Assembly (NCBI RefSeq): GCF_988242995.1 | Contig: NZ_OZ547043.1 | DNA: 64,000 nt | Direction: 5' to 3' (one strand) | Part shown: positions 6,867 to 64,000 of the stretch, one piece after another | How the letters are laid out: each line of letters opens with the position of its first letter | How positions within the stretch are numbered: the first letter of the stretch is position 1 | Program-made: the position numbers and the translations under genes | The notes under the pieces: model-generated | What the model was told of the DNA's origin: nothing | Database searches by the model: none | What the model saw: the letters and a program-made list of their open reading frames with translations, nothing else

Positions 6867-9220
<2,354 letters not shown>

Positions 9221-9351
9221 GAAAATAAAACCTTGCAGGAAAAACGGCGATAGCACCGGGTGAGAACAATACCCGAGAAGCGATATCCATACAAACAGAT
9301 GAAGATTGCAGCCGTAACGTCTATAATCAGCGCCCCACACAGAGGTAGAAC

Positions 9352-10686
9352 ATGACTGTAACGACTTTTTCCGAACTTGAACTCGACGAAAGCCTGCTGG
9401 AAGCCCTCCAGGATAAAGGTTTCACTCGCCCGACCGCCATTCAGGCTGCCGCCATTCCGCCTGCGCTCGATGGCCGTGATGTACTCGGTTCTGCGCCGAC
9501 AGGCACCGGTAAAACGGCGGCGTATCTGCTGCCAGCGTTGCAGCACCTGCTCGATTTCCCACGTAAGAAATCCGGTCCGCCGCGTATTTTGATCCTCACC
9601 CCAACTCGCGAGCTGGCGATGCAGGTGGCCGATCATGCCCGCGAACTGGCGAAACATACGCATCTGGATATCGCCACCATCACCGGCGGCGTAGCCTATA
9701 TGAACCACGCGGAAGTGTTCAGCGAAAATCAGGACATCGTGGTCGCCACGACCGGACGTTTGCTGCAATACATAAAAGAAGAGAACTTCGATTGCCGCGC
9801 GGTTGAAACGCTGATCCTCGACGAAGCAGACCGTATGCTGGATATGGGCTTCGCTCAGGATATCGAACATATTGCTGGCGAAACGCGCTGGCGTAAACAG
9901 ACCCTGCTCTTTTCCGCAACGCTGGAAGGCGATGCGATTCAGGACTTTGCCGAGCGTCTGCTGGAAGATCCGGTGGAAGTTTCTGCGAATCCCTCCACCC
10001 GTGAGCGCAAAAAAATTCATCAGTGGTATTACCGCGCCGATGACCTGGAACATAAAACCGCGTTGCTGGTGCACCTGTTAAAACAGCCGGAAGCGACTCG
10101 CTCAATCGTATTTGTGCGTAAGCGTGAGCGTGTACATGAGCTGGCAAACTGGCTGCGCGAAGCGGGCATCAACAACTGCTATCTCGAAGGTGAGATGGTA
10201 CAGGGCAAGCGTAACGAAGCGATCAAGCGTTTGACCGAAGGTCGCGTAAACGTACTGGTTGCCACCGATGTTGCCGCGCGCGGTATCGACATTCCTGACG
10301 TCAGCCACGTCTTTAACTTCGATATGCCGCGCAGTGGCGATACTTATTTGCACCGTATCGGACGTACCGCGCGCGCCGGTCGTAAAGGCACCGCAATTTC
10401 GCTGGTAGAAGCCCATGACCATCTGCTGCTGGGCAAAGTTGGTCGCTATATTGAAGAGCCAATTAAAGCTCGTGTAATTGATGAGTTACGCCCGAAAACG
10501 CGTGCGCCAAGCGAGAAGCAAACCGGCAAGCCATCGAAGAAAGTACTGGCAAAACGCGCCGAGAAGAAAAAAGCTAAAGAGAAAGAGAAGCCGCGGGTGA
10601 AAAAACGCCATCGCGACACCAAAAATATTGGTAAGCGCCGTAAACCGAGCGGAACGGGCGTGCCACCGCAAACGACAGAAGAGTAA
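9352..10686 (+). CDS. srmB: DEAD-box ATP-dependent RNA helicase SrmB
   Basis: 444-aa ORF with Walker A (APTGTGKT), DEAD box (LDEADRM), SAT and HRIGRTAR motifs. Confidence 0.93.
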
Positions 10687-52006: not shown

Positions 52007-52369
52007 GGGGCTGATTCTGGATTCGACGGGATTTGCGAAACCCAAGGTGCATGCCGAGGGGCGGTTGGCCTCGTAAAAAGCCGCAAAAAATAGTCGCAAA
52101 CGACGAAAACTACGCTTTAGCAGCTTAATAACCTGCTTAGAGCCCTCTCTCCCTAGCCTCCGCTCTTAGGACGGGGATCAAGAGAGGTCAAACCCAAAAG
52201 AGATCGCGTGGAAGCCCTGCCTGGGGTTGAAGCGTTAAAACTTAATCAGGCTAGTTTGTTAGTGGCGTGTCCGTCCGCAGCTGGCAAGCGAATGTAAAGA
52301 CTGACTAAGCATGTAGTACCGAGGATGTAGGAATTTCGGACGCGGGTTCAACTCCCGCCAGCTCCACCA
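52007..52369 (+). ncRNA. ssrA: tmRNA (SsrA / 10Sa RNA)
   Basis: 363 nt from GGGGCTGATTCTGGATTCGACGGG to ...CCCGCCAGCTCCACCA; contains the tag reading frame region; tRNA-like 3' end. Confidence 0.96.
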
Positions 52370-52483
52370 CTTGCTCTTCCGGATACGTCCGGAGAAATCC
52401 TGAAAGCCCGCATGGCGCAAGCCCTGTGGGCTTTTTTGTGTCTACCGTTGTCCGAGGATATCCAGCTGAGTCCAGTGATTATT

Positions 52484-52531
52484 GGTATACGTTTAGGTAT
52501 ACGGTAAGATGTATACCTAAATGCGTATACC
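52484..52531. promoter_or_regulatory. Repeat cluster at the int 5' end (GTATAC-containing repeats with an 11-bp inverted repeat); candidate Int arm-type sites or int operator
   Basis: TTTAGGTATAC-N8-GTATACCTAAA perfect inverted repeat (about 52492-52521) abutting the ATG at 52521, plus two more GGTATAC/CGTATACC copies. Confidence 0.45.
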
Positions 52532-53753
52532 AATTCATGAAGGAACGGCCAAAGTGGCAAGAACGACACGTCCCCTGACCAACACTGAAGTTCTGCGCGC
52601 TAAAGCGTTAGAAAAGGATCTAACGTTGCATGATGGCGATGGCCTTTTTCTGCTCGTTAAAACGAACGGTAAGAAATTATGGCGTTTCCGCTACCAAAAG
52701 CCAGTAACAAAACAGCGGACCATGATTAGTTTAGGAACCTTCCCTGCACTATCCTTGGCTGAAATCAGAAATGTGCGAGCTAAGTATCTTTCCTTGTTAG
52801 CCAAGGGGATCGATCCACAAACACACAATGAACAAGTCACACAACAACAACAAATTGCAGTAGAAAGTATTTTTTCAAACGTTGCTAAAAATTGGTTTGC
52901 CATTAAACGCAATAGCGTTACACCTGATTATGCAAAGGATATATGGCGATCCTTAGAGAAGGACATTTTCCCTGCTATCGGAGAGATTCCTGTTCAGGAA
53001 ATAAAAGCACGTATATTAATTGAAGCCCTAGAACCAATTAAGGCCCGCGGTGCACTCGAGACTGTTCGTCGTTTGGTGCAACGTATTAACGAAATTATGA
53101 TCTACGCTGTCAATACCGGATTAATTGAGGCTAATCCTGCGTCAGGTATTGGCATGGCTTTTGATAAACCCAAAAAGCAAAATTTGCCAACGCTGCGGCC
53201 AGAAGAATTACCTAAACTGATGCATTCTCTAGTAATGTCAAACCTGTCTATTCCTACTCGTTGTCTGATCGAATGGCAACTACTGACACTCGTTCGCCCT
53301 TCAGAAGCCTCTGGCGCCCGCTGGGATGAGATCGATTTAGAATCCAAACTTTGGAGAATTCCTGCTGAAAGGATGAAAGCAAAGCGCGAACATATAGTTC
53401 CTTTATCATCTCAAGCTTTAATTATTCTTGAAGTAATGAAACCCATAAGTGCTCATCGTGAACATATATTTCCTAGCAGGAATAACCCTCAAGAACCGAT
53501 GAATAGCCAAACAGCAAATGCAGCATTAAAACGCATAGGGTACGGAGGAAAGTTAGTTGCACATGGACTCCGTTCTATTGCCAGCACTGCATTAAATGAA
53601 GCCGAATTTAATTCTGACATTATTGAATCAGCTCTTGCACATGTTGATAAAAATGAGGTGAGAAGAGCATATAACCGCTCCACTTATCTTGATAAACGTA
53701 AAGAGATGATGGCTTGGTGGGGAAATTTTATATATAAAAATAATTCATTATAA
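52521..53753 (+). CDS. int: Tyrosine recombinase (phage integrase, P4/CP4-57 family)
   Basis: 410-aa ORF with C-terminal catalytic region (HGLRSIAST...LAHVD...RRAYNRSTYLDKR); real start may be the downstream GTG (about 52551, reading VARTTRPLT). Confidence 0.88.
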   Translation: MRIPIHEGTAKVARTTRPLTNTEVLRAKALEKDLTLHDGDGLFLLVKTNGKKLWRFRYQKPVTKQRTMISLGTFPALSLAEIRNVRAKYLSLLAKGIDPQTHNEQVTQQQQIAVESIFSNVAKNWFAIKRNSVTPDYAKDIWRSLEKDIFPAIGEIPVQEIKARILIEALEPIKARGALETVRRLVQRINEIMIYAVNTGLIEANPASGIGMAFDKPKKQNLPTLRPEELPKLMHSLVMSNLSIPTRCLIEWQLLTLVRPSEASGARWDEIDLESKLWRIPAERMKAKREHIVPLSSQALIILEVMKPISAHREHIFPSRNNPQEPMNSQTANAALKRIGYGGKLVAHGLRSIASTALNEAEFNSDIIESALAHVDKNEVRRAYNRSTYLDKRKEMMAWWGNFIYKNNSL

Positions 53754-53764
53754 AAGGTATTACA

Positions 53765-54799
53765 ATGAATATTGATTCTATAAAACTTCATTTACAAAAT
53801 TTTTTCACAAATAATCCAACTGTTCTTATCGGTTCTGGCCTCTCTCTCGGTGAGGGGATTCCAGGTATGAAAACATTGGGAGAACATCTTAATACAACTA
53901 TCCCCAAATTAGTAAGCGGGGATCTTATAAGAGAATGGGGTATCATAAGTTCCAAACTAAATAATGGTATGGGACTTGAAGATGCCATGGCATTTCTTAA
54001 AGATGAAAGTGAACTTATCCCATTAATTATTCAGCACACCGCAGATCTTATTTTAAAGCATGAAAATACTGTAATATGCTCTGTAATCAATGGAGAAAAA
54101 AATCTAGCATTTACATCTTTATTGAATCACTTAACTTTTAATCAAAATGAATTGATAATTATAACTCCAAACTATGATAGACTAATTGAAATAGCATGTG
54201 AAATTGCTGGTCTAGAAATTTCAACAGGATTTATCAATAGTTATCATTGTATAAATAATCCTGAAGTTGAGTTAGATAAATTCAAAATCACCCACTCTAT
54301 CAAAACCACACGAGGTAAATCTACAGTTCAAATTAGAACTAAAAAACACGTTAAAATATTTAAACCTCATGGTAGTCTTGATTGGTTCAAGGCTGACGAT
54401 AAAATTATCAGGACCAGCTTTCAAAATAAACATAAAAGATTAATTATTACACCAGGTACAAGTAAATTCAGAGCTGGATATCAGCAGCCTTTTGATTGGC
54501 ATAGAGAAAAAGCAAACCATTATATCAAAAGAGCAAAATCACTATTAATTATTGGCTATGGGTTTAATGATGAGCAGTTAGAAGTACATTTGAAATCAAA
54601 AATACGTGAAAAAATACCTGTTTTATTAATGACATATGAATTGACATCAAACGCTCAAAAAATATGTGATGATAATCCTTCTATAACATATGTTATTGCA
54701 GAAGGAAACAATTCCATCGTTTGTATCGATGGCATTAAATATAAAATCGAAAAGAATATTTGGTCTTTAAATGAGTTTGTTAAAGAGGTACTTAAATAA
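53765..54799 (+). CDS. SIR2-like NAD+-binding protein (predicted NADase effector); cargo gene 1
   Basis: 344-aa ORF. Gly-rich NAD-binding loop VLIGSGLSLGEG, TPNYD motif (catalytic Asn codon 54170-54172), KPHGS motif (His codon 54367-54369) and second Rossmann motif IIGYGFND. Low GC; stop overlaps next gene's start (TAATG). Confidence 0.8.
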   Translation: MNIDSIKLHLQNFFTNNPTVLIGSGLSLGEGIPGMKTLGEHLNTTIPKLVSGDLIREWGIISSKLNNGMGLEDAMAFLKDESELIPLIIQHTADLILKHENTVICSVINGEKNLAFTSLLNHLTFNQNELIIITPNYDRLIEIACEIAGLEISTGFINSYHCINNPEVELDKFKITHSIKTTRGKSTVQIRTKKHVKIFKPHGSLDWFKADDKIIRTSFQNKHKRLIITPGTSKFRAGYQQPFDWHREKANHYIKRAKSLLIIGYGFNDEQLEVHLKSKIREKIPVLLMTYELTSNAQKICDDNPSITYVIAEGNNSIVCIDGIKYKIEKNIWSLNEFVKEVLK

Positions 54800-56583
54800 T
54801 GGAATATTACGTCATTAACACTGATGAAACATGCTTTATCGGACGAATCGCAAATGTTGATACCGATCGTGCTATTATCATTTCAGAGTCTCCAGAGATC
54901 ATACAAGAACTAACCGTTTTTGACTTGGTTGCTATTGAAGGCAATACCCCCACAGAGTTTCTTGTTGGTATCATTGAAAAAGTAAAACGCTCTATTGGAG
55001 AAATACAAACTATTGATACTGAAGAAAATATTGAAGATGACAGTGAAAAAGATTTCGATAATATCTTCCAAACTTATTCTATCGATCATGATATTCTTCA
55101 AGTAGCTCTTATCGGCACTTTCTGGGAGGTTTACGGGGATAGAAGGAAAATTTTTAAAAGAGGAGCACAATATTTTCCAAAAGTTGAAAAACAAGCATTT
55201 CTTATAAAAAAAGACAGTCTTGAGAAATTAATGTCGGCAGTCGACAATGATACTCCTGATGAGCTAAAACTCATACTAGGCAACTATGGAAATACCAATT
55301 CACGAGCAGTTGCAAATGGGGATAAATTATTTCAGAGACATGCTGCCCTATTGGGGAGTACTGGTTCAGGTAAAAGTTGGACAGTTGCGTCATTACTAGA
55401 ACAAGCCTCAAAATTAAAATACAACAATATTGTACTTTATGATCTTCATGGTGAATACAAAACTTTATCTGATACACATAATAAATCGAACCGCCCGAGC
55501 ATAGCCGATTATTTTAAAATTGCAAGCCCAGGAAATATCGACGATGTAAATAGTATTTATGTACCTCATTGGTTATTAAACAAAGAAGAAATGCTATCAC
55601 TGTTGTTAGATAGAAGCGATAGCAATGCACCTAATCAGGCAGCAAGATTTAGCTACCACGTGAGAGAGCTAAAAAAAGAATACATCACACACAACAGATT
55701 AATACACTTAGAAGATTGTTTGACTGTTGATGCTCCAATACCCTACTCTATCGAGGATCTTATTAGCAGACTGCACGATGATGATCAAGGTATGAAAAAA
55801 GGTACTAATAATAAAGAAATAAAAGGTGATTGGAATGGAAAACTAACAAGATTCATAAGCAGGTTAAGAACAAAAGTAGACGACAAGAGGAACTGTTTTC
55901 TATTCTCAAATAAACCAGAACACAACCAATATGATTGGTTGGAGAAATACGCTTGTAAAATTTTAAAATCAGATAGCACAGATCATGGCATTAAAATAAT
56001 TGATTTTTCTGAAGTTCCTTCAGATATTATGCCTATTGTTATTGGTGTATTGACCAGATTTTTATACAACGTCCAATTTTGGAGATGTGAGACCGAACGA
56101 ACCCCTATAGCATTCGTTTGTGACGAAGCTCATATTTATTTACCCGCTAAGGATACCACTGAGGCTGAAACAAAAATATCCTTATCAATATTCGAGAAAA
56201 TTGCTAAAGAAGGCAGAAAGTACGGAGTATCTTTATTAGTCGTCAGCCAAAGACCTTCTGATGTTAGCAGAACAATACTAAGTCAATGTAATAACATAAT
56301 TTCTCTCAGACTAAGTAATTATAGAGATCAACAGGTAGTTAGTCGGTTAATGCCTGATTCATTGAGTTCATTAACATCCATACTACCAATTCTTGATACT
56401 GGGGAAGCAATAGTTCTTGGCGACTCTGTTCTATTACCAGCTAGAATAAAATTGAATCCACCAACACTCAAGCCCGATAGCGCAACCAGAGCTTTTTGGA
56501 ATGAGTGGGGGGCAATTGAAGCAAAAGAAATCTCTATAGCAAATGCTGTTGAATCACTCAGGAGACAATCTCGTAATCGCTAA
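54799..56583 (+). CDS. HerA/FtsK-type ATPase; cargo gene 2
   Basis: 594-aa ORF. Walker A GSTGSGKS (Lys codon 55372-55374), Walker B FVCDEAH (56122-56133), and KEGRKYGVSLLVVSQRP arginine-finger region typical of HerA. Translationally coupled to the SIR2-like gene. Confidence 0.8.
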   Translation: MEYYVINTDETCFIGRIANVDTDRAIIISESPEIIQELTVFDLVAIEGNTPTEFLVGIIEKVKRSIGEIQTIDTEENIEDDSEKDFDNIFQTYSIDHDILQVALIGTFWEVYGDRRKIFKRGAQYFPKVEKQAFLIKKDSLEKLMSAVDNDTPDELKLILGNYGNTNSRAVANGDKLFQRHAALLGSTGSGKSWTVASLLEQASKLKYNNIVLYDLHGEYKTLSDTHNKSNRPSIADYFKIASPGNIDDVNSIYVPHWLLNKEEMLSLLLDRSDSNAPNQAARFSYHVRELKKEYITHNRLIHLEDCLTVDAPIPYSIEDLISRLHDDDQGMKKGTNNKEIKGDWNGKLTRFISRLRTKVDDKRNCFLFSNKPEHNQYDWLEKYACKILKSDSTDHGIKIIDFSEVPSDIMPIVIGVLTRFLYNVQFWRCETERTPIAFVCDEAHIYLPAKDTTEAETKISLSIFEKIAKEGRKYGVSLLVVSQRPSDVSRTILSQCNNIISLRLSNYRDQQVVSRLMPDSLSSLTSILPILDTGEAIVLGDSVLLPARIKLNPPTLKPDSATRAFWNEWGAIEAKEISIANAVESLRRQSRNR

Positions 56584-56627: not shown

Positions 56628-56791
56628 CGCCCGCTTTGCGGGGCGGTTTCAGTGCAGTTGCACTGACACGCTCAGGCCGCGCCGGGAATGGCGCGGTCTG
56701 CAGAAAATGAGGCAGGAAAACGCATGCAAAGCCATGCACCTTATCGATGCATGGCTTTTTTCAGTAAAAACGGGCGGATTTTCGGGGAATT

Positions 56792-57364
56792 TTACACAGA
56801 CTGATGTGATGCCAGTTGCGCACTTTTACGCGAAAAAATCATGTTCTGCGCAGGAGTGAATTTTTCACGGCTGTCATCCACCGAAGCCGCGTCAGGCCTG
56901 AATCCGATGGTCGTTAAAATGTCGCTATCCTGTGCGGAATAATTAATTTTTTCACCCTTCGCAAGCCAGGACTGGAGGGCTTCACGCAGGGCATCTGTGG
57001 CACGCTGTATGGCACAGTTTCGGGCAATGGCCGTCAGCTCACTGTAGCCCATCAGCTCCGGTGCCAGTGCCGCCGCCAGTGCTGTGCCGTGCTGCTGCAT
57101 AAAATCATTCAGCCGGTCGCGGATGCTGATGTGCTGAACGGCTTCATGCGAACGAATATAACGACCGGCGGCCTGATTCACCTGCCATTTTCTGACTTCG
57201 ATAATATTGCGTAATTCGTCCAGGCGACTGACGTTTCTGCCTTCTCCTGACAGAAGCCGCAGGTATTCCTGTTCGGCCGCTGCCAGCTCATTTTTGCGTT
57301 GCAGCCATGCTGCTTTGTTATTCTGACAGGTGTCAAAGGCCTGCTGTAAGGCTGTGCTTTCCAT
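56792..57364 (-). CDS. psu: P4 Psu-like protein (polarity suppression / capsid decoration)
   Basis: 190-aa ORF, the same length as P4 Psu, in the conserved psu-delta-sid order next to cos. Confidence 0.75.
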   Translation of the reverse strand: MESTALQQAFDTCQNNKAAWLQRKNELAAAEQEYLRLLSGEGRNVSRLDELRNIIEVRKWQVNQAAGRYIRSHEAVQHISIRDRLNDFMQQHGTALAAALAPELMGYSELTAIARNCAIQRATDALREALQSWLAKGEKINYSAQDSDILTTIGFRPDAASVDDSREKFTPAQNMIFSRKSAQLASHQSV

Positions 57365-57437
57365 CGTTATCTCTTTCTCATCATGCTGAAGAATAAAAAT
57401 ACGGTGTGCGGCGACGGCCGGTGTTAACCGGCAGCCC

Positions 57438-57938
57438 TCATTCCAGACGCAGCGAATATGATTGTGTTTTTAACCGTACTGGCGGCAGTTCCTGTTTTTC
57501 ATGCAGGCGTTCTGCCAGTTCGTCCGGCGTGACCGGGCGGACAATGAAACGGTTGATGGTCTGAAGCGTTTTAAACACCAGACCACAGCCCGGATCCGTG
57601 CACACATAAAAACGCTCGGTGACTTCCTGAGACAGACGCCGCGATGTTCTTGACAGTGCAAGGCCTTTACATCTCCGACAACAATATCCGGTAACAAGCA
57701 TTCTTTTCGGCCGTTTCATACTGCCGGAGGCTGACGTCAGTGAATCGCGGTATCTCTGTTTGCCTGAAATGTATTCCATTCCTGAATCTTTACAGTCAGA
57801 GAAAAAGCTTTCACTCGCTTCAAATGTCGCAGAGCAATAAATATTCCGGCACTGTGCAATCATTATCTTGGTGCCATCGTCCATGAAATGTGCGCGACGG
57901 GTGTGAGCAACATGTCCACACGACGGGCAGTAAATCAT
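57438..57938 (-). CDS. delta: P4 Delta-like late-gene activator (tandem Ogr-type zinc fingers)
   Basis: 166-aa ORF with two C-x2-C...C-x4-C zinc-finger units (MIYCPSCGHVAH...CRNIYC and YCCRRCKG...CTDPGC). Confidence 0.85.
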   Translation of the reverse strand: MIYCPSCGHVAHTRRAHFMDDGTKIMIAQCRNIYCSATFEASESFFSDCKDSGMEYISGKQRYRDSLTSASGSMKRPKRMLVTGYCCRRCKGLALSRTSRRLSQEVTERFYVCTDPGCGLVFKTLQTINRFIVRPVTPDELAERLHEKQELPPVRLKTQSYSLRLE

Positions 57939-58669
57939 GACAGCAGCCCTCTGGCCTTAAGCTCTGCTCCCTGCTGGTCTATTTTGTCCTGCCACACCTT
58001 GCGCTGTGCCGGTGTGCCTGCCACCTCATAATCCATGTGCGGGAGTGTTGCCGCTGACAGTCCGGCCAGCCGGAGAACCGGCTCGCCGGTGAGGCTGATT
58101 TGCATCTGTTTTATTTTCTGTTCCAGCGATGATTTCACCTGCTGCATGACAGCCTTTTCCGGCGCGACGTAGCCCTGATGGCCGGTGGTGTTGGCGAGCG
58201 GATTTTCCTGTACCAGGATGCTCAGATGCATTGCCCGGACAAGCGCCTCACAGGTTTCATTCAGGGCGTGTTCCAGCTCATGCTCTGCATACAGACTCAG
58301 CAGGTGATGATGTGCCTTCCGGTAGGCGGTGGCCGTGCTGTCACACGCCCCTTTCAGGCGTTCACATTCAAAATTCAGCACCACGGCCAGATTGTCATAT
58401 TCCTGTACCAGCTCCCGGCGTGCCACGCGCTCAATGTGGCGCTGTTTCAGCTCATCGCTCAGGACACCACCGGCTGCACGAAAGGCCGTGCGCCAGTCGT
58501 CAGCGTCGTTTCCGTCGGCCTGCGTCAGCGCATTTTTTTCCTGCTCTGCCCGTTCAATGGCCGTGATGGTCTCATCCATCAGGCGGGCGTTCTCAAGATG
58601 AGCGGCTCTGGCCTTTTCCAGTTGTGCCAGCGCGGGTTGCAGATATTCAGGGATGGTGTTGTCAGACAT
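57935..58669 (-). CDS. sid: P4 Sid-like external scaffold (capsid size determination) protein
   Basis: ORF track gives 266 aa; start trimmed to MSDNTIPEYLQPALAQLEK (244 aa, the P4 Sid length) with RBS; coiled-coil-rich. Confidence 0.75.
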   Translation of the reverse strand: MSDNTIPEYLQPALAQLEKARAAHLENARLMDETITAIERAEQEKNALTQADGNDADDWRTAFRAAGGVLSDELKQRHIERVARRELVQEYDNLAVVLNFECERLKGACDSTATAYRKAHHHLLSLYAEHELEHALNETCEALVRAMHLSILVQENPLANTTGHQGYVAPEKAVMQQVKSSLEQKIKQMQISLTGEPVLRLAGLSAATLPHMDYEVAGTPAQRKVWQDKIDQQGAELKARGLLS

Positions 58670-58703
58670 TTTCCGGCTCCTCGTCACTTCAGGTTGAGAA
58701 AAT

Positions 58704-58759
58704 TGTGACGTACACCGGACAACAACACGACGCATTGCAGATGTGCCAGCCCTGACACA
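58704..58759. promoter_or_regulatory. Two TGT-N12-ACA dyads; candidate Delta/Ogr activator sites for the divergent late promoters (Psid / PLL)
   Basis: TGTgacgtacaccggACA (58704-58721) and TGTgccagccctgacACA (58742-58759) match the P2/P4 late-promoter activator element TGT-N12-ACA. Confidence 0.55.
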
Positions 58760-58838
58760 GGAGACTCATCCTCAGACCGGCAAGCCAGGAAAAGGTCGCA
58801 GGAAAAACCGGCTTACTGTTTGTTTTTTTATATTTTAC

Positions 58839-58942
58839 TGTTCACCTCTGTTCACCTTAAGAAAAAAGATAAGTAATACAGTAAGTTAAAGGATGAACAA
58901 TCGCAGTAATGACTGTTCACCGTCTGTTCACCACTGTTCACC
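58839..58942. repeat. Candidate P4-type replication origin (ori) iteron cluster
   Basis: Five direct copies of TGTTCACC (58839, 58849, 58914, 58925, 58935) plus a degenerate inverted copy; about 4.8 kb from the crr repeats, as in P4. Confidence 0.7.
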
Positions 58943-59221
58943 CGCTCATGGACTTTTTGTGCTGTTTACTACTGTTTGTTTTTATTAATTCGCCGGGAAT
59001 GAATAAGAAGAAACGATTTGTATTTCACTATAAAAATTACGAATTGCTTTAAGTGGCTTTAAATGACTTTAAGTGGAGATGAACAAAAAATACACAAGCA
59101 TTGTAAGGCTGCCGGAACAAATCCCCCCTGTTGCGTCTGCCGAAAATATTCACAAAATAAAGCGCTACCCGAAGCCGGACGGACTTATCCGGTGCTGTAT
59201 GGACATTAACGAGGTAGCCCG

Positions 59222-59488
59222 ATGCAATCTGTTTTTTCTTCCCCGTCTCCCGCCCCAGTGACGCCACTGATGCCGCTGCCGGACATCACGCAGGAGCGTT
59301 TTTTACGTCTGCCGGAAGTGATGCACCTGTGCGGCCTGTCACGCTCGACCATCTATGAACTTATCCGTAAGGGGGAATTTCCGCCGCAGGTGAGTCTTGG
59401 CGGTAAAAATGTGGCCTGGCTGCACTCTGAAGTCACCGCATGGATGGCCGGGCGCATTGCCGGACGCAAACGGGGGTACGACGCATGA
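59222..59488 (+). CDS. vis: AlpA/Vis-family helix-turn-helix regulator
   Basis: 88-aa ORF with AlpA-type HTH ([27 protein letters not shown]), the length of P4 Vis. Confidence 0.75.
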
Positions 59489-60084
59489 TGATGCCCGCTC
59501 TGCAAAAAGTCCCTTTTTCTGGCTTGCCTTTTTCCGGCATTTGCGGATATAGTTTTTCCGCTGCCGCAAAATCGGCAGCCGGGCGTGGAAACCCGAGTAT
59601 GTTATCGGCGACATATGACGCGCCATGCGTCTTTTTTTGTGTCGCAATCAACGCCACAGAGCGCCAGATTATGGTGTGGTGTGTGGTCAGTCGAGCAAAT
59701 GGCACTCCGTGCATTCTGCCCGCGTCCGCTCATTATACCGCAGAGTCAATGGTAGCTCAGGCGGGGCAGCCTCCGCGCTGGCCGGTTTCCGATAACGCCG
59801 GTATTTCCACCCCCGTCTGGGCTATCGCCATCGAGCGTGGAAACTCCGGCGATAGCGTCATTTACGCTGTTATCGGAGGTTGCCTTATGGCTACGACCCT
59901 TATCCCCTCACACCCTGAATTTGTCTTTGTGTTTGCGGCTGTCCGTCGCGCAGACCGTCATCCCCGTATCTGTATGCTTCGCACCGTCGCCGGTGATGAA
60001 CGCAGCGCCCGCCGTTCCCTTGTCCGTGACTATGTGCTCTCCCTTGCTGCCCGTCTGCCGGTGGTGGAGGTGTCCCGTGCGTAA
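59485..60084 (+). CDS. Hypothetical protein, P4 orf199-like (coding status uncertain)
   Basis: 214-aa ORF trimmed to an internal Met to give 199 aa; Ala/Pro-rich and GC-rich, so it could instead overlie the RNA-based immunity locus. Confidence 0.35.
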
Positions 60085-60364
60085 TAAAAAAGCCCCTCAG
60101 ACCGTCTCAGCACGTCATGACGCCCGTGAACACCTCAGCATTGAGGCTTACCATAAGCTCAACCGCGCCAGCGCCGTATCCCAGTTTGTTGGGGGTGATT
60201 TGATTCACCGTGAACTCTCCGGCCTGCATCAGCTCTACATTCCGCATATTTTCAGCTACCTGAATGAAGATATTGATTTTGTGCTGAATGAGCTGAAAGC
60301 CAAAGGCCTGTGCCGCGATTTTCTCGCCCAGCAGAAAGACCGGGGAGACAGGACGCATGTTTGA
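60077..60364 (+). CDS. Hypothetical protein, P4 epsilon-like (possible helper-prophage derepressor)
   Basis: About 95 codons from a putative GTG start within ORF 59837-60364 ([25 protein letters not shown]...); size and position match P4 epsilon. Assignment is by analogy only. Confidence 0.4.
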
Positions 60365-60812
60365 TTTTCCCCAGCCCGGTGAGATTTACCGTTCTGCCGG
60401 TTTTCCCGATGTGGCCGTGGTCGGCATTCTGGAAGACGGTATTCCGTGGGAAATGCCGTACCGCTGCCCGGACATTGTCTGGAACCCGTACCGCCGTAAA
60501 TTCAGTATCCTTGTGCGTATCCTCGCTGACGGGCGCACCACAGACATCCCGCTGGGGCGTTTTCTGCGGGAATTTACCTGTGACCGTCCTGACCTGTTTA
60601 AACGCAGCCCCGTAAACCGGCATGCGGTACTGAAAGAAATGGCCGGAGACCCGGAATTACAGAAATGGCGGGAGAAATATCTGGATATTTACCCGCAGGA
60701 CCCTGTTCCGGTCAGCCGGGCGGCACCGGTGGCGCGGGAATGGCGGGAAATTCCCCGCACGGAGCCTGACCCGGAAACCACCCCGGATAACAGTTACCGC
60801 AATTATCTGTAA
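60357..60812 (+). CDS. Hypothetical protein, P4 orf151-like
   Basis: 151-aa ORF whose start overlaps the previous ORF's stop; position upstream of alpha as in P4. Confidence 0.6.
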   Translation: MFDFPQPGEIYRSAGFPDVAVVGILEDGIPWEMPYRCPDIVWNPYRRKFSILVRILADGRTTDIPLGRFLREFTCDRPDLFKRSPVNRHAVLKEMAGDPELQKWREKYLDIYPQDPVPVSRAAPVAREWREIPRTEPDPETTPDNSYRNYL

Positions 60813-60947
60813 TTAAAAAACGACACCCGAAAAATTAAATGTGCGTATTCGCGCAGGGATACGCACGTCTTCAGGAGACGCAGATATGCCTTATCAGTTA
60901 ATGCAACCGGCACGGAATGCAGTCATCTGTCACAGGGAGGAAAACAA

Positions 60948-61268
60948 ATGAAAACACCCTTACCGCCCGTCTTACGCGCTGCCCTTTACCGTCGCGCTGT
61001 CGCCTGTGCCTGGCTGACCGTGTGCGAACGTCAGCACCGCTACCCGCATCTCACCCTTGAGTCACTGGAGGCGGCCATCGCCGCTGAGCTGGAAGGCTTT
61101 TATCTGCGCCAGCACGGTGAGGAAAAAGGGCGTCAGATAGCCTGTGCCCTGCTGGAAGATTTAATGGAATCCGGCCCCCTGAAGGCCGCGCCGTCGCTGT
61201 CCTTTCTCGGGCTGGTTGTGATGGATGAACTCTGTGCCCGTCACATAAAAGCGCCGGTACTGCACTGA
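60948..61268 (+). CDS. Hypothetical protein, P4 orf106-like
   Basis: 106-aa ORF directly upstream of the alpha gene. Confidence 0.55.
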
Positions 61269-61282
61269 AGGAGAACAACACC

Positions 61283-63616
61283 ATGAAAATGAACGTAACC
61301 GCCACCGTCAGCCATGCGCTCGGCCACTGGCCGCGTATTCTCCCGGCGCTGGGGATTCAGGTGCTGAAGAACCATCATCAGCCCTGTCCGGTCTGTGGCG
61401 GGAGTGACCGCTTCCGTTTTGATGACAGGGAGGGGCGCGGCACCTGGTACTGCAATCAGTGTGGTGCCGGTGACGGCCTGAAACTGGTTGAAAAGGTGTT
61501 TGGTGTCTCCCCGTCCGACGCGGCCGCAAAGGTGGCTGCCGTGACCGGCAGTCTGCCCCCGGCTGACCCGGCAGTGACGGCTGCCGCCGTTGCTGAAACA
61601 GACGCTGCCCGGAAGAACGCCGCCGCACTGGTACAAACCCTGATGGCAAAAACCCGTCCCGGAACCGGTAACGCCTACCTGACCCGCAAGGGCTTTCCCG
61701 GCCGGGAATGCCGGATGCTGACCGGCACACACAGAGCCGGTGGCGTGAGCTGGCGCGCCGGTGACCTTGTGGTGCCACTGTATGACGACAGCGGCGAACT
61801 GGTTAACCTTCAGTTAATCAGTGCTGACGGCCGTAAGCGCACCCTGAAAGGCGGACAGGTCAGGGGCACCTGTCACACCCTTGAAGGACAGAATCAGGCC
61901 GGAAAACGTCTGTGGATAGCGGAGGGATACGCGACCGCACTTACCGTGCATCACCTGACCGGTGAAACGGTGATGGTGGCGCTTTCTTCCGTGAATCTCC
62001 TTTCTCTGGCCAGCCTTGCCCGGCAGAAGCATCCGGCCTGTCAGATTGTCCTTGCTGCTGACCGTGACCTCAGCGGTGACGGCCAGAAAAAAGCCGCCGC
62101 AGCCGCAGATGCGTGTGAAGGTGTTGTTGCCCTGCCGCCGGTCTTCGGTGACTGGAATGATGCCTTCACGCAGTACGGCGGGGAAGCCACCCGTAAGGCC
62201 ATTTATGATGCCATCCGGCCACCGGCTGAAAGCCCGTTCGACACCATGAGCGAAGCGGAGTTTTCCGCCATGAGTACCAGCGAAAAGGCCATGCGTATCT
62301 ATGAGCATTACGGCGAGGCGCTCGCGGTCGATGCCAACGGCCAGCTTCTGTCCCGCTATGAAAATGGTGTCTGGAAGGTGCTGCCGCCACAGGACTTTGC
62401 CCGGGATGTGGCCGGGCTGTTTCAGCGTCTGCGAGCGCCGTTCTCCTCCGGGAAGGTGGCCTCCGTGGTGGACACCCTGAAGCTGATTATTCCGCAGCAG
62501 GAAGCCCCCTCCCGCCGCCTGATTGGCTTTCGTAACGGCGTGCTCGACACGCAGAACGGCACGTTCCACCCGCACAGTCCGTCACACTGGATGCGCACCC
62601 TGTGCGATGTGGATTTCACCCCGCCGGTGGACGGTGAAACGCTGGAAACCCACGCCCCCGCCTTCTGGCGCTGGCTTGACCGTGCCGCCGGTGGCCGTGC
62701 GGAAAAACGCGACGTGATTCTGGCTGCACTGTTTATGGTGCTGGCAAACCGCTACGACTGGCAGCTCTTTCTGGAGGTGACCGGTCCCGGCGGCAGCGGC
62801 AAAAGTATCATGGCCGAAATCGCCACCCTGCTGGCCGGGGAGGATAACGCCACGTCGGCCACCATCGAGACGCTGGAATCCCCGCGTGAACGTGCCGCGT
62901 TAACTGGCTTCTCACTGATACGCCTGCCGGATCAGGAAAAATGGAGCGGCGACGGTGCCGGACTCAAGGCCATCACCGGCGGCGATGCGGTGTCCGTTGA
63001 CCCGAAATACCGGGATGCGTACTCCACGCACATCCCGGCGGTGATTCTGGCCGTGAACAATAACCCGATGCGCTTCACCGACCGCAGCGGCGGCGTGTCA
63101 CGCCGGCGGGTGATTATTCACTTCCCGGAACAGATAGCCCCGCAGGAGCGCGACCCGCAGCTTAAGGACAAAATCACCCGCGAGCTGGCGGTCATCGTGC
63201 GTCACCTGATGCAGAAGTTCAGCGACCCGATGCTCGCCCGGTCACTGCTTCAGTCCCAGCAGAACTCAGACGAGGCACTGAACATCAAACGGGATGCCGA
63301 CCCGACGTTTGATTTTATCGGCTATCTGGAAACCCTGCCGCAGACCAGCGGCATGTATATGGGGAACGCCAGTATCATCCCGCGTAATTACCGTAAATAC
63401 CTCTATCACGCCTATCTGGCCTACATGGAGGCAAACGGCTACCGGAATGTACTCAGTCTGAAAATGTTCGGACTGGGGCTGCCGGTGATGCTGAAAGAAT
63501 ACGGGCTGAATTACGAGAAGCGCCATACCAAACAGGGGATACAGACCAACCTGACGCTGAAAGAAGAAAGCTACGGCGACTGGCTGCCAAAATGTGACGA
63601 CCCTGCAACAGCCTGA
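61283..63616 (+). CDS. alpha: P4 alpha-type replication protein (zinc-finger primase - TOPRIM - helicase - ori-binding)
   Basis: 777-aa ORF (P4 alpha length). N-terminal zinc finger CPVCGGSDRFRF...WYCNQCG, TOPRIM-like acidic patch (AADRD), helicase Walker A (TGPGGSGKS). Confidence 0.88.
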   Translation: MKMNVTATVSHALGHWPRILPALGIQVLKNHHQPCPVCGGSDRFRFDDREGRGTWYCNQCGAGDGLKLVEKVFGVSPSDAAAKVAAVTGSLPPADPAVTAAAVAETDAARKNAAALVQTLMAKTRPGTGNAYLTRKGFPGRECRMLTGTHRAGGVSWRAGDLVVPLYDDSGELVNLQLISADGRKRTLKGGQVRGTCHTLEGQNQAGKRLWIAEGYATALTVHHLTGETVMVALSSVNLLSLASLARQKHPACQIVLAADRDLSGDGQKKAAAAADACEGVVALPPVFGDWNDAFTQYGGEATRKAIYDAIRPPAESPFDTMSEAEFSAMSTSEKAMRIYEHYGEALAVDANGQLLSRYENGVWKVLPPQDFARDVAGLFQRLRAPFSSGKVASVVDTLKLIIPQQEAPSRRLIGFRNGVLDTQNGTFHPHSPSHWMRTLCDVDFTPPVDGETLETHAPAFWRWLDRAAGGRAEKRDVILAALFMVLANRYDWQLFLEVTGPGGSGKSIMAEIATLLAGEDNATSATIETLESPRERAALTGFSLIRLPDQEKWSGDGAGLKAITGGDAVSVDPKYRDAYSTHIPAVILAVNNNPMRFTDRSGGVSRRRVIIHFPEQIAPQERDPQLKDKITRELAVIVRHLMQKFSDPMLARSLLQSQQNSDEALNIKRDADPTFDFIGYLETLPQTSGMYMGNASIIPRNYRKYLYHAYLAYMEANGYRNVLSLKMFGLGLPVMLKEYGLNYEKRHTKQGIQTNLTLKEESYGDWLPKCDDPATA

Positions 63617-63649
63617 CCCACCTGACCGGCATCTGCCGGTCTTTTTTTA

Positions 63650-63975
63650 TCCCTGAATCCCCCGAAGGTGAACAATCCAGTGTTCACCCTTCACCGTATA
63701 TTCACCCGTTATCACACTGAAATTAAAAGAGAAAAACGAAAGGTGAACAGTGTGAACAATCAAATCAAAAAAAACTTTTTTTCTTCCTGTGTGATTTTCA
63801 GCACGGGAAATTAATCCCCTGCACAAGTCACACCGGCAGAATGCCGGAGGTGAAGAATCGAATGTTCACCCTTCACCCATTATTCACCACCTATCACTCT
63901 GAAATAAAAGGAGAAAACAGAAAGGTGAACAGTGTGAACAGTTCTTTCGAAAAAAAATTTTTTTCCTGTACGATA
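63650..63975. repeat. crr-like cis replication region: two direct repeats of about 130 bp, period about 185 bp, each carrying TGTTCACC/GGTGAACA iterons
   Basis: Repeat 1 (about 63660-63790) and repeat 2 (about 63845-63970) align nearly base for base (ggtgaacaatccagtgttcaccc... versus ggtgaagaatcgaatgttcaccc...); located just 3' of alpha. Confidence 0.75.
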
Positions 63976-64000
63976 TAGCATCAATCCAAGTAAAAATGCG

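What the first reader, a model, noticed from the sequence alone, without database searches (positions are those of the whole stretch)
58830..58950. TGTTCACC iteron cluster between sid and vis: candidate alpha-binding origin
Five direct copies of the octamer TGTTCACC within about 105 bp (58839-58942) plus a degenerate inverted copy. The same octamer recurs in the crr repeats about 4.8 kb away, matching the P4 arrangement in which alpha binds type I iterons at ori and crr.
Basis: partly seen in the sequence, partly recalled or inferred. Interest (0 to 1): 0.5.

Follow-up and report, generated by a model that had tools for sequence, protein, structure and literature searches.

The report
Known phage P4 replication origin (ori1)
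The repeated octamer cluster is the long-known replication origin of satellite phage P4, sitting in a nearly identical P4-type prophage in an E. coli chromosome, so the finding is correct but ordinary.

Summary
TGTTCACC occurs five times in direct orientation at 58839, 58849, 58914, 58925 and 58935. One inverted, one-mismatch copy lies at 58892-58899. The window holds 13 exact copies against 1.84 expected.

Window 56628-63963 is 98% identical to bacteriophage P4 (X51522). The P4 record annotates six "ori type 1 repeats" at exactly these six positions, inside its "origin of DNA replication" feature.

The rest of the replicon is present:
- alpha is 771/777 identical to P4 alpha, and its origin-binding domain is unchanged.
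- cnr is 100% identical.
- Both 120-bp crr repeats carry ten iterons, 4.8 kb away.

The six-iteron geometry, with about 10.6-bp phasing and an 80% A+T spacer, recurs in 58 of 80 diverged satellites fetched from other Enterobacterales (59 of 81 counting P4). Iteron columns are far better conserved than their flanks.

The only difference from P4 inside an iteron is G to A at 58893, a minor natural allele (3 of 35 close relatives). Its effect is untested.

The element sits at ssrA, has a different integrase, and carries a SIR2-HerA defence pair. Verdict: already known, low interest.

The parts
58839..58846 (+). type I iteron 1 (TGTTCACC)
   Evidence: Exact match. Corresponds to P4 'ori type 1 repeat' 9406-9413.
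58849..58856 (+). type I iteron 2 (TGTTCACC)
   Evidence: Exact match. Corresponds to P4 repeat 9396-9403.
58857..58891 (.). 35-bp A+T-rich spacer (80% A+T), presumed DNA-unwinding region of ori1
   Evidence: Composition. Strongly conserved across the 59-sequence ori alignment (window, P4 and diverged satellites). The unwinding role is inferred from my recollection of the P4 literature.
58892..58899 (-). type I iteron 3, inverted, with one mismatch (TGTTCATC; P4 has the perfect TGTTCACC)
   Evidence: Corresponds to P4 repeat 9353-9360. The A allele at 58893 is shared by 3 of 35 close IMG/VR relatives.
58914..58921 (+). type I iteron 4
   Evidence: Exact match. Corresponds to P4 repeat 9331-9338.
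58925..58932 (+). type I iteron 5
   Evidence: Exact match. Corresponds to P4 repeat 9320-9327.
58935..58942 (+). type I iteron 6
   Evidence: Exact match. Corresponds to P4 repeat 9310-9317. Conservation among relatives collapses just to its right.
59047..59076 (-). three 10-bp 'ori type 2 repeats' (GCTTTAAGTG-like)
   Evidence: the repeat finder family D3. Corresponds to P4 features 9176-9205. Identical to P4.
58443..59166 (.). equivalent of the 'origin of DNA replication' feature of the P4 record (X51522 9086-9809)
   Evidence: Coordinate transfer; 97.5% identity.
60948..61268 (+). cnr (ORF106), copy-number regulator of the ori1 replicon
   Evidence: 106/106 identical to P4 ORF106.
61283..63616 (+). 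alpha: initiator with primase, SF3 helicase and a C-terminal winged-helix origin-binding domain
   Evidence: 771/777 identical to P4 alpha, with no change in residues 127-774. Residues 671-770 match PDB 1KA8 at E=1e-63.
63662..63963 (.). crr, the second cis-acting replication site: two 120-bp direct repeats, each with five type I iterons
   Evidence: Alignment to P4 crr. Iteron positions. P4 annotation. Homology to P4 ends at 63963.
57935..58669 (-). sid (left neighbour, transcribed away from ori)
   Evidence: P4 sid CDS mapped onto the window.
59222..59488 (+). vis / ORF88 (right neighbour, transcribed away from ori)
   Evidence: 88-aa ORF. Corresponds to P4 ORF88.

Best explanation
This is ori1, the primary replication origin of a P4-type satellite prophage integrated at ssrA in an E. 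coli chromosome.

Mechanism, known for P4 and inferred for this copy. When immunity is lifted, the element's alpha protein is made. Its C-terminal winged-helix domain binds the type I iterons (TGTTCACC) at ori1 and at crr, 4.8 kb away. The six ori1 iterons lie on one face of the helix and flank a 35-bp, 80% A+T segment. Alpha bound at the two sites brings them together, the A+T segment opens, alpha's SF3 helicase loads and its primase domain primes. Host DNA polymerase III then carries out bidirectional theta replication without DnaA, DnaB/C or DnaG. Cnr tunes copy number by modulating alpha's DNA binding.

Shown here: sequence identity to the annotated P4 origin, integrity of alpha, cnr and crr, and purifying selection on the iterons, their spacing and the A+T spacer. 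Inferred: binding, looping, melting and firing in this copy.
For: - Window 58302-59400 is 97.5% identical to P4 X51522; the match covers the features 'origin of DNA replication', 'ori type 1 repeat' x6 and 'ori type 2 repeat' x3.
- The base-by-base alignment of 58780-59100 shows all five direct iterons, their spacing and the type 2 repeats identical to P4.
- Alpha is 771/777 identical, and the region matching the solved P4 origin-binding domain (1KA8, residues 671-770) is unchanged.
- cnr is 100% identical.
- crr has both 120-bp repeats and 10 iterons.
- In 80 loci encoding alpha homologues of 56-87% identity, 65 have at least 4 octamers (one mismatch allowed) within 126 bp, against about 0.1 expected. 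58 of them (59 of 81 counting P4) keep the ori1 geometry 0/+10/+53(inverted)/+75/+86/+96.
- Majority-base conservation is 0.923 in iteron columns against 0.666 elsewhere, Mann-Whitney p=1e-12.
- Phasing resultant is R=0.94-0.98 at a 10.6-10.7 bp period.
- No Rfam family overlaps the cluster and there is no sigma-70-like promoter in it.
- The literature held here confirms alpha's primase, SF3 helicase and winged-helix architecture and its origin recognition (PMC2777425; PMC8628076, citing Ziegelin et al. 1993).
Against: - Nothing contradicts the identification.
- The inverted iteron carries a C-to-T change at iteron position 7 (58893 G to A on the + strand), inside the conserved TTCAC core. From memory, Tocchetti et al. 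1999 found that deleting any one iteron inactivated ori1, so reduced activity of this copy cannot be excluded.
- The same allele occurs in 3 of 35 close relatives and in L019 and L033, which argues that it is tolerated.
- The far att site lies beyond the window end, so completeness of the prophage on that side is unseen.
- No binding or replication data exist for this copy.
Confidence: 0.96

Rival explanations
1. It is homologous to P4 ori1 but functionally dead or attenuated. The C-to-T change in the inverted iteron weakens alpha binding at one of six required sites. The element would then replicate poorly from ori1, or rely on the alpha-internal ori2 together with crr.
For: The only iteron difference from P4 is in the conserved core. 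It is the minor allele, 3 of 35. From memory, loss of any single iteron, or a 6-10 bp insertion, abolished ori1 function (Tocchetti et al. 1999; paper not held).
Against: A point change is not a deletion. The same allele recurs in independent relatives, including diverged ones (L019, L033). C7-to-T variants also occur at other iterons in relatives (L032, L038, L041). All other parts of the replicon are intact and almost identical to P4.
Confidence: 0.1
2. The repeats are primarily transcription-regulator sites for the divergent late promoters Psid and PLL (delta/Ogr or Vis operators), not origin elements.
For: The cluster lies in the sid-vis intergenic region, which also holds the late promoters. 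The older record X02534 annotated only 'imperfect direct repeats' and dyad symmetries there.
Against: The same octamer is clustered at crr, downstream of alpha and far from any late promoter. The P4 record annotates the repeats as ori repeats. The octamers do not fit the TGT-N12-ACA delta/Ogr site I recall (reading). Alpha, not delta or Vis, is the reported binder (own knowledge; Ziegelin et al. 1993, cited).
Confidence: 0.03
3. Chance clustering or a low-complexity artefact.
For: None.
Against: 13 copies against 1.84 expected, with 0 of 100 shuffles reaching 13. Identical positions in P4. Conserved geometry in 58 of the 80 diverged loci.
Confidence: 0

Closest known systems
Bacteriophage P4 ori (ori1), X51522 positions about 9310-9413 within rep_origin 9086-9809
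   Same: Same locus by descent. It lies between sid and vis and has six type I iterons at identical positions and spacing. The A+T spacer is identical but for one base and the type 2 repeats are identical. Identity is 97.5-99%.
   Different: One substitution in the inverted iteron (58893 G to A) and a few spacer or flank changes. The host element sits at ssrA with a different integrase and carries SIR2-HerA in place of gop/beta/cII.
P4 crr (cis replication region)
   Same: It carries the same alpha-binding octamer and is the partner site of ori1. It is present in the window at 63662-63963 with both 120-bp repeats.
   Different: crr has mixed-orientation iterons, some degenerate, within two long direct repeats, and lies just downstream of alpha. 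The cluster under study is ori1, not crr.
Iteron-controlled plasmid origins (pSC101, R6K gamma, P1, F oriS)
   Same: Directly repeated, helically phased initiator-binding sites next to an A+T-rich unwinding region, bound by a winged-helix initiator domain (own knowledge).
   Different: P4 iterons are 8 bp rather than about 17-22 bp. The initiator is itself the helicase and primase. Replication is independent of DnaA, DnaB and DnaG, and a distant second site (crr) is required in cis (own knowledge).
Self-loading primase-helicase initiators of other small elements (SaPI Rep/ori, pRN1 ORF904)
   Same: A single polypeptide combines origin recognition, an SF3-type helicase and a primase. PDB 7OLA (labelled only 'DNA primase') is a distant hit to alpha at E=1e-7. 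pRN1 ORF904 is compared with alpha in PMC2777425.
   Different: Unrelated origin sequences and a different primase fold in pRN1 (prim/pol). They are analogues, not homologues, of this ori.

Membership tests
P4 ori1 (alpha-dependent origin of P4-like satellites) | Sequence homology to the experimentally defined P4 ori region | tested here: met
   97.5% over 1.1 kb; 58780-59100 differs from P4 at only a handful of positions.
P4 ori1 (alpha-dependent origin of P4-like satellites) | Six type I iterons (TGTTCACC), five direct and one inverted, spaced close to the helical repeat | tested here: met
   Five exact copies plus one inverted copy with one mismatch, at the positions annotated in P4. Phasing R=0.94-0.98 at 10.6-10.7 bp.
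P4 ori1 (alpha-dependent origin of P4-like satellites) | A+T-rich segment of about 35 bp within the iteron array | tested here: met
   58857-58891 is 80% A+T and conserved across relatives.
P4 ori1 (alpha-dependent origin of P4-like satellites) | Location between the divergently transcribed sid and vis (ORF88) genes | tested here: met
   sid at 57935-58669 (-) and vis at 59222-59488 (+).
P4 ori1 (alpha-dependent origin of P4-like satellites) | Cognate alpha initiator with an intact C-terminal origin-binding domain encoded in cis | tested here: met
   771/777 identical, with no change in residues 127-774. 1KA8 matches residues 671-770.
P4 ori1 (alpha-dependent origin of P4-like satellites) | Partner site crr with type I iterons about 4.5-4.8 kb away, and the cnr gene | tested here: met
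   crr at 63662-63963 with 10 iterons. cnr 106/106 identical.
P4 ori1 (alpha-dependent origin of P4-like satellites) | Alpha binds the iterons, and the fragment supports alpha-dependent replication | not testable with these tools
   This needs a gel shift or footprint and a plasmid replication assay. It is established for P4 itself (own knowledge; Ziegelin et al. 1993, cited in PMC8628076).

The most novel reading that the evidence does not exclude
The G-to-A change in the inverted iteron (58893) could be a naturally segregating origin-strength allele. It might lower ori1 firing or plasmid-state copy number in the roughly 9% of close relatives that carry it. More broadly, the exact six-iteron geometry plus the A+T spacer is conserved across Enterobacterales satellites whose alpha proteins are only about 57-60% identical. 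In the one satellite survey I read (PMC8628076), crr is not mentioned and the word search turned up no discussion of a replication origin. Variant iteron cores seen in Pantoea-type loci (CCTTCACC / TTCTTCACC) could mark co-evolving alpha and iteron specificities.
Probability: 0.15. Interest if true: 0.2.

Novelty: already known. Interest (0 to 1): 0.07.

Why it matters
It matters little as a discovery. P4 ori and crr and their recognition by alpha have been textbook material for phage-plasmid replication since the late 1980s. The practical points are modest. RefSeq annotates nothing under this origin in any of the 40 listed hits among the 1004 complete E. coli genomes that carry it, so a reader of raw sequence will keep rediscovering it. 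The intact replicon (ori1, crr, alpha, cnr) suggests that this SIR2-HerA-carrying satellite can still replicate and be mobilised, which bears on the spread of defence systems.

Tried and rejected
- Primary papers: I tried to read Tocchetti et al. 1999 (by PMID 10438819 and a guessed PMC id) and Ziegelin et al. 1993 (PMC413647). None is held. Statements about the 123-bp minimal ori1, ori2, alpha binding and looping, DnaA/DnaG independence and Cnr therefore rest on my own knowledge and are marked as such.
- Literature searches: full-text searches for P4 iteron papers returned mostly Vibrio chromosome-2 work. PMC9942202 only notes that crr and ori were included in a P4 cosmid but not active.
- Terminator reading: the scan flagged a hairpin on the - strand at 58921-58892. 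I rejected it as a terminator. It is the dyad formed by inverted iteron 3 and direct iteron 4, it lies between divergent genes, and one such hit is what shuffles give (0.9 expected).
- Promoter reading: no sigma-70-like site in 58600-59300. The scan does not cover the activator-dependent late promoters.
- RNA reading: no Rfam family overlaps the cluster.
- Internal GGTGAACA at about nt 1766 of alpha in many distant homologues: I considered an internal alpha site but judged it a coding coincidence (Val-Asn codons). It is absent from this window's alpha.
- My first difference map of IMG/VR relatives was off by one base. I redid it; the allele counts did not change.

Full report
**Observation.** TGTTCACC occurs exactly on the + strand at 58839, 58849, 58914, 58925 and 58935. 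The repeat finder extends each copy to a 10-nt unit, (A/T)CTGTTCACC, with start-to-start spacings of 10, 65, 11 and 10. An inverted copy with one mismatch, GATGAACA (TGTTCATC on the - strand), lies at 58892-58899. The whole 64-kb window holds 13 exact copies against 1.84 +/- 1.40 expected, and none of 100 dinucleotide-preserving shuffles reached 13. Ten of the 13 fall in two clusters, this one and 63667-63931. The three others are scattered singletons at about the chance rate.

**What it is.** A blastn search of 58300-59400 against the phage collection found bacteriophage P4 (X51522 / NC_001609) at 97.5% identity over the full query. The features under the match are 'origin of DNA replication', 'ori type 1 repeat' x6 and 'ori type 2 repeat' x3. 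After coordinate transfer (window = L001 + 56627), the six type 1 repeats of the P4 record fall on 58839, 58849, 58892 (inverted), 58914, 58925 and 58935. The three type 2 repeats fall on 59047-59076, which repeat finder had found independently as GCTTTAAGTG x3.

The pairwise alignment of 58780-59100 shows only a few differences from P4. One lies inside an iteron: P4 has a perfect inverted copy (GGTGAACA), while the window has GATGAACA (58893 G to A).

**The rest of the replicon.**
- Window 56628-63963 matches P4 4291-11624 (cos to crr) at 98%.
- Alpha (61283-63616) is 771/777 identical to P4 alpha. All six differences lie at residues 31, 100, 104, 117, 126 and 775.
- The stretch that matches the solved P4 origin-binding domain (PDB 1KA8, residues 671-770, E=1e-63) is therefore unchanged.
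- cnr (60948-61268) is 106/106 identical.
- crr (63662-63963) keeps both 120-bp repeats. Five iterons per repeat sit at the positions annotated in P4.
- Rfam finds the P4 immunity RNAs just downstream of vis: isrK, the c4-a1b1 targets and the C4/CI RNA. Nothing overlaps the iterons.
- The P4 cohesive-end core at the 56627/56628 junction is conserved.

**Host element.** The tmRNA gene ssrA lies at 52007-52369. It is followed by an integrase ORF (52521-53753) that does not match P4 int at megablast level. Two cargo genes follow and score as SIR2 (E=1e-124) and HerA (E=9e-210) in PADLOC. They occupy the integrase-to-cos region described as the P4 defence hotspot (PMC8628076). So this is a P4-type satellite prophage with the P4 core, a different integration module and a SIR2-HerA cargo. 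The ori segment occurs in 1004 of 5426 complete E. coli genomes, always chromosomal. No annotated feature lies under it in any of the 40 listed hits.

**Comparative test of function.** I fetched 80 loci encoding alpha homologues of 56-87% identity from Citrobacter, Enterobacter, Edwardsiella, Pantoea, Serratia, Erwinia, Yersinia, Dickeya and others. Exact octamers cluster 1.6-2.6 kb upstream of alpha and, in many loci, just downstream of it, where crr would be. Allowing one mismatch, 65 of 80 loci have at least 4 octamers within 126 bp, where about 0.1 is expected. 58 of the 80 loci (59 of 81 counting P4) show the ori1 geometry.

In the alignment of those regions, the majority-base fraction is 0.923 in the 48 iteron columns and 0.666 in the other 112 (Mann-Whitney p=1e-12). 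The spacer AAAAAGATAAGTAATACAGTAAGTTAAAG is also strongly conserved, and conservation collapses immediately right of the sixth iteron. The six sites are phased at about 10.6-10.7 bp (R=0.94-0.98), and the 35-bp spacer is 80% A+T. This is the pattern expected of a protein-bound, face-aligned iteron array flanking an unwinding element.

**The one deviation.** Among 35 IMG/VR contigs with a near-identical origin, 32 carry G and 3 carry A at the site equivalent to 58893. The A allele also appears in two diverged loci, L019 and L033. It is a minor but recurrent natural variant. Whether it lowers alpha binding is untested.

**Mechanism.** The following comes from established knowledge of P4 and is not shown here. 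Alpha binds type I iterons at ori1 and crr through its C-terminal winged-helix domain and can bridge the two sites. The A+T segment opens, and alpha's SF3 helicase and DnaG-type primase domains start bidirectional theta replication, which host polymerase III completes without DnaA, DnaB/C or DnaG. Cnr modulates alpha's DNA binding to limit copy number. A second, alpha-internal site (ori2) can substitute for ori1 together with crr.

The sources I recall are Flensburg and Calendar 1987, Ziegelin et al. 1993, 1995 and 1997, Tocchetti et al. 1999 and Yeo et al. 2002. The library did not hold Tocchetti et al. 1999 or Ziegelin et al. 1993; I did not request the others. Alpha's domain architecture and origin recognition are confirmed by papers that are held (PMC2777425; PMC8628076).

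**Rivals.**
- An attenuated or dead copy, because of the iteron substitution, is possible but unlikely (about 0.1).
- A purely transcriptional role for the repeats is contradicted by their recurrence at crr and by the P4 annotation.
- Chance is excluded.

**Verdict.** Novelty: already known. Interest: low.

Noticed in passing
window 53765-56583: Two cargo genes between the integrase and cos score as SIR2 (53765-54799, PADLOC E=1e-124) and HerA (54799-56583, E=9e-210). This SIR2-HerA anti-phage pair replaces P4's gop/beta/cII in the known P4 defence hotspot.
   Followed up: partly
window 52007-53753: The satellite is inserted next to ssrA (tmRNA, 52007-52369), not at leuX as I recall for P4. 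Its integrase ORF (52521-53753) does not match P4 int at megablast level. The second att site lies beyond the window end.
   Followed up: partly
window 58893: G-to-A substitution in the inverted type I iteron relative to P4 (iteron position 7, C to T). It is the minor allele, found in 3 of 35 close IMG/VR relatives and also in the diverged loci L019 and L033.
   Followed up: yes
window 59078-59085: A second GATGAACA (a one-mismatch inverted iteron) abuts the three type 2 repeats (59047-59076). It is also present in P4 but is not annotated there as a type 1 repeat.
   Followed up: no
window 58892-58921: Inverted iteron 3 and direct iteron 4 form an imperfect dyad with a 14-bp gap. The scan flagged it as terminator-like on the - strand. 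It corresponds to a 'region of imperfect dyad symmetry' in X02534 and may be a site for an alpha dimer.
   Followed up: partly
window 59547-59832: Rfam hits isrK (59560-59637), c4-a1b1 (59547-59599) and C4 antisense RNA (59745-59832) mark the P4 CI-RNA immunity region downstream of vis.
   Followed up: no
IMG/VR relatives L083-L117: One close relative carries what looks like an extra, seventh direct iteron immediately right of the position equivalent to 58942. Another has TGTTCACA in iteron 2.
   Followed up: no
L038-L041, L045, L078 (Pantoea and Enterobacter cancerogenus loci), ori-equivalent regions: In these loci several iterons read CCTTCACC or TTCTTCACC rather than CTGTTCACC, while the TTCAC core and the spacing are kept. 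This may reflect a shifted alpha specificity.
   Followed up: no
L021, L029-L032, L038 and many others, about nt 1766 of the alpha homologue: A GGTGAACA octamer recurs at the same position inside the alpha coding sequence of many distant homologues but not in this window. It is probably a codon coincidence (Val-Asn).
   Followed up: no
window 63964-64000: Homology to P4 stops right after crr (about 63963). The segment between crr and the att site differs from P4, consistent with a swapped integration module.
   Followed up: no
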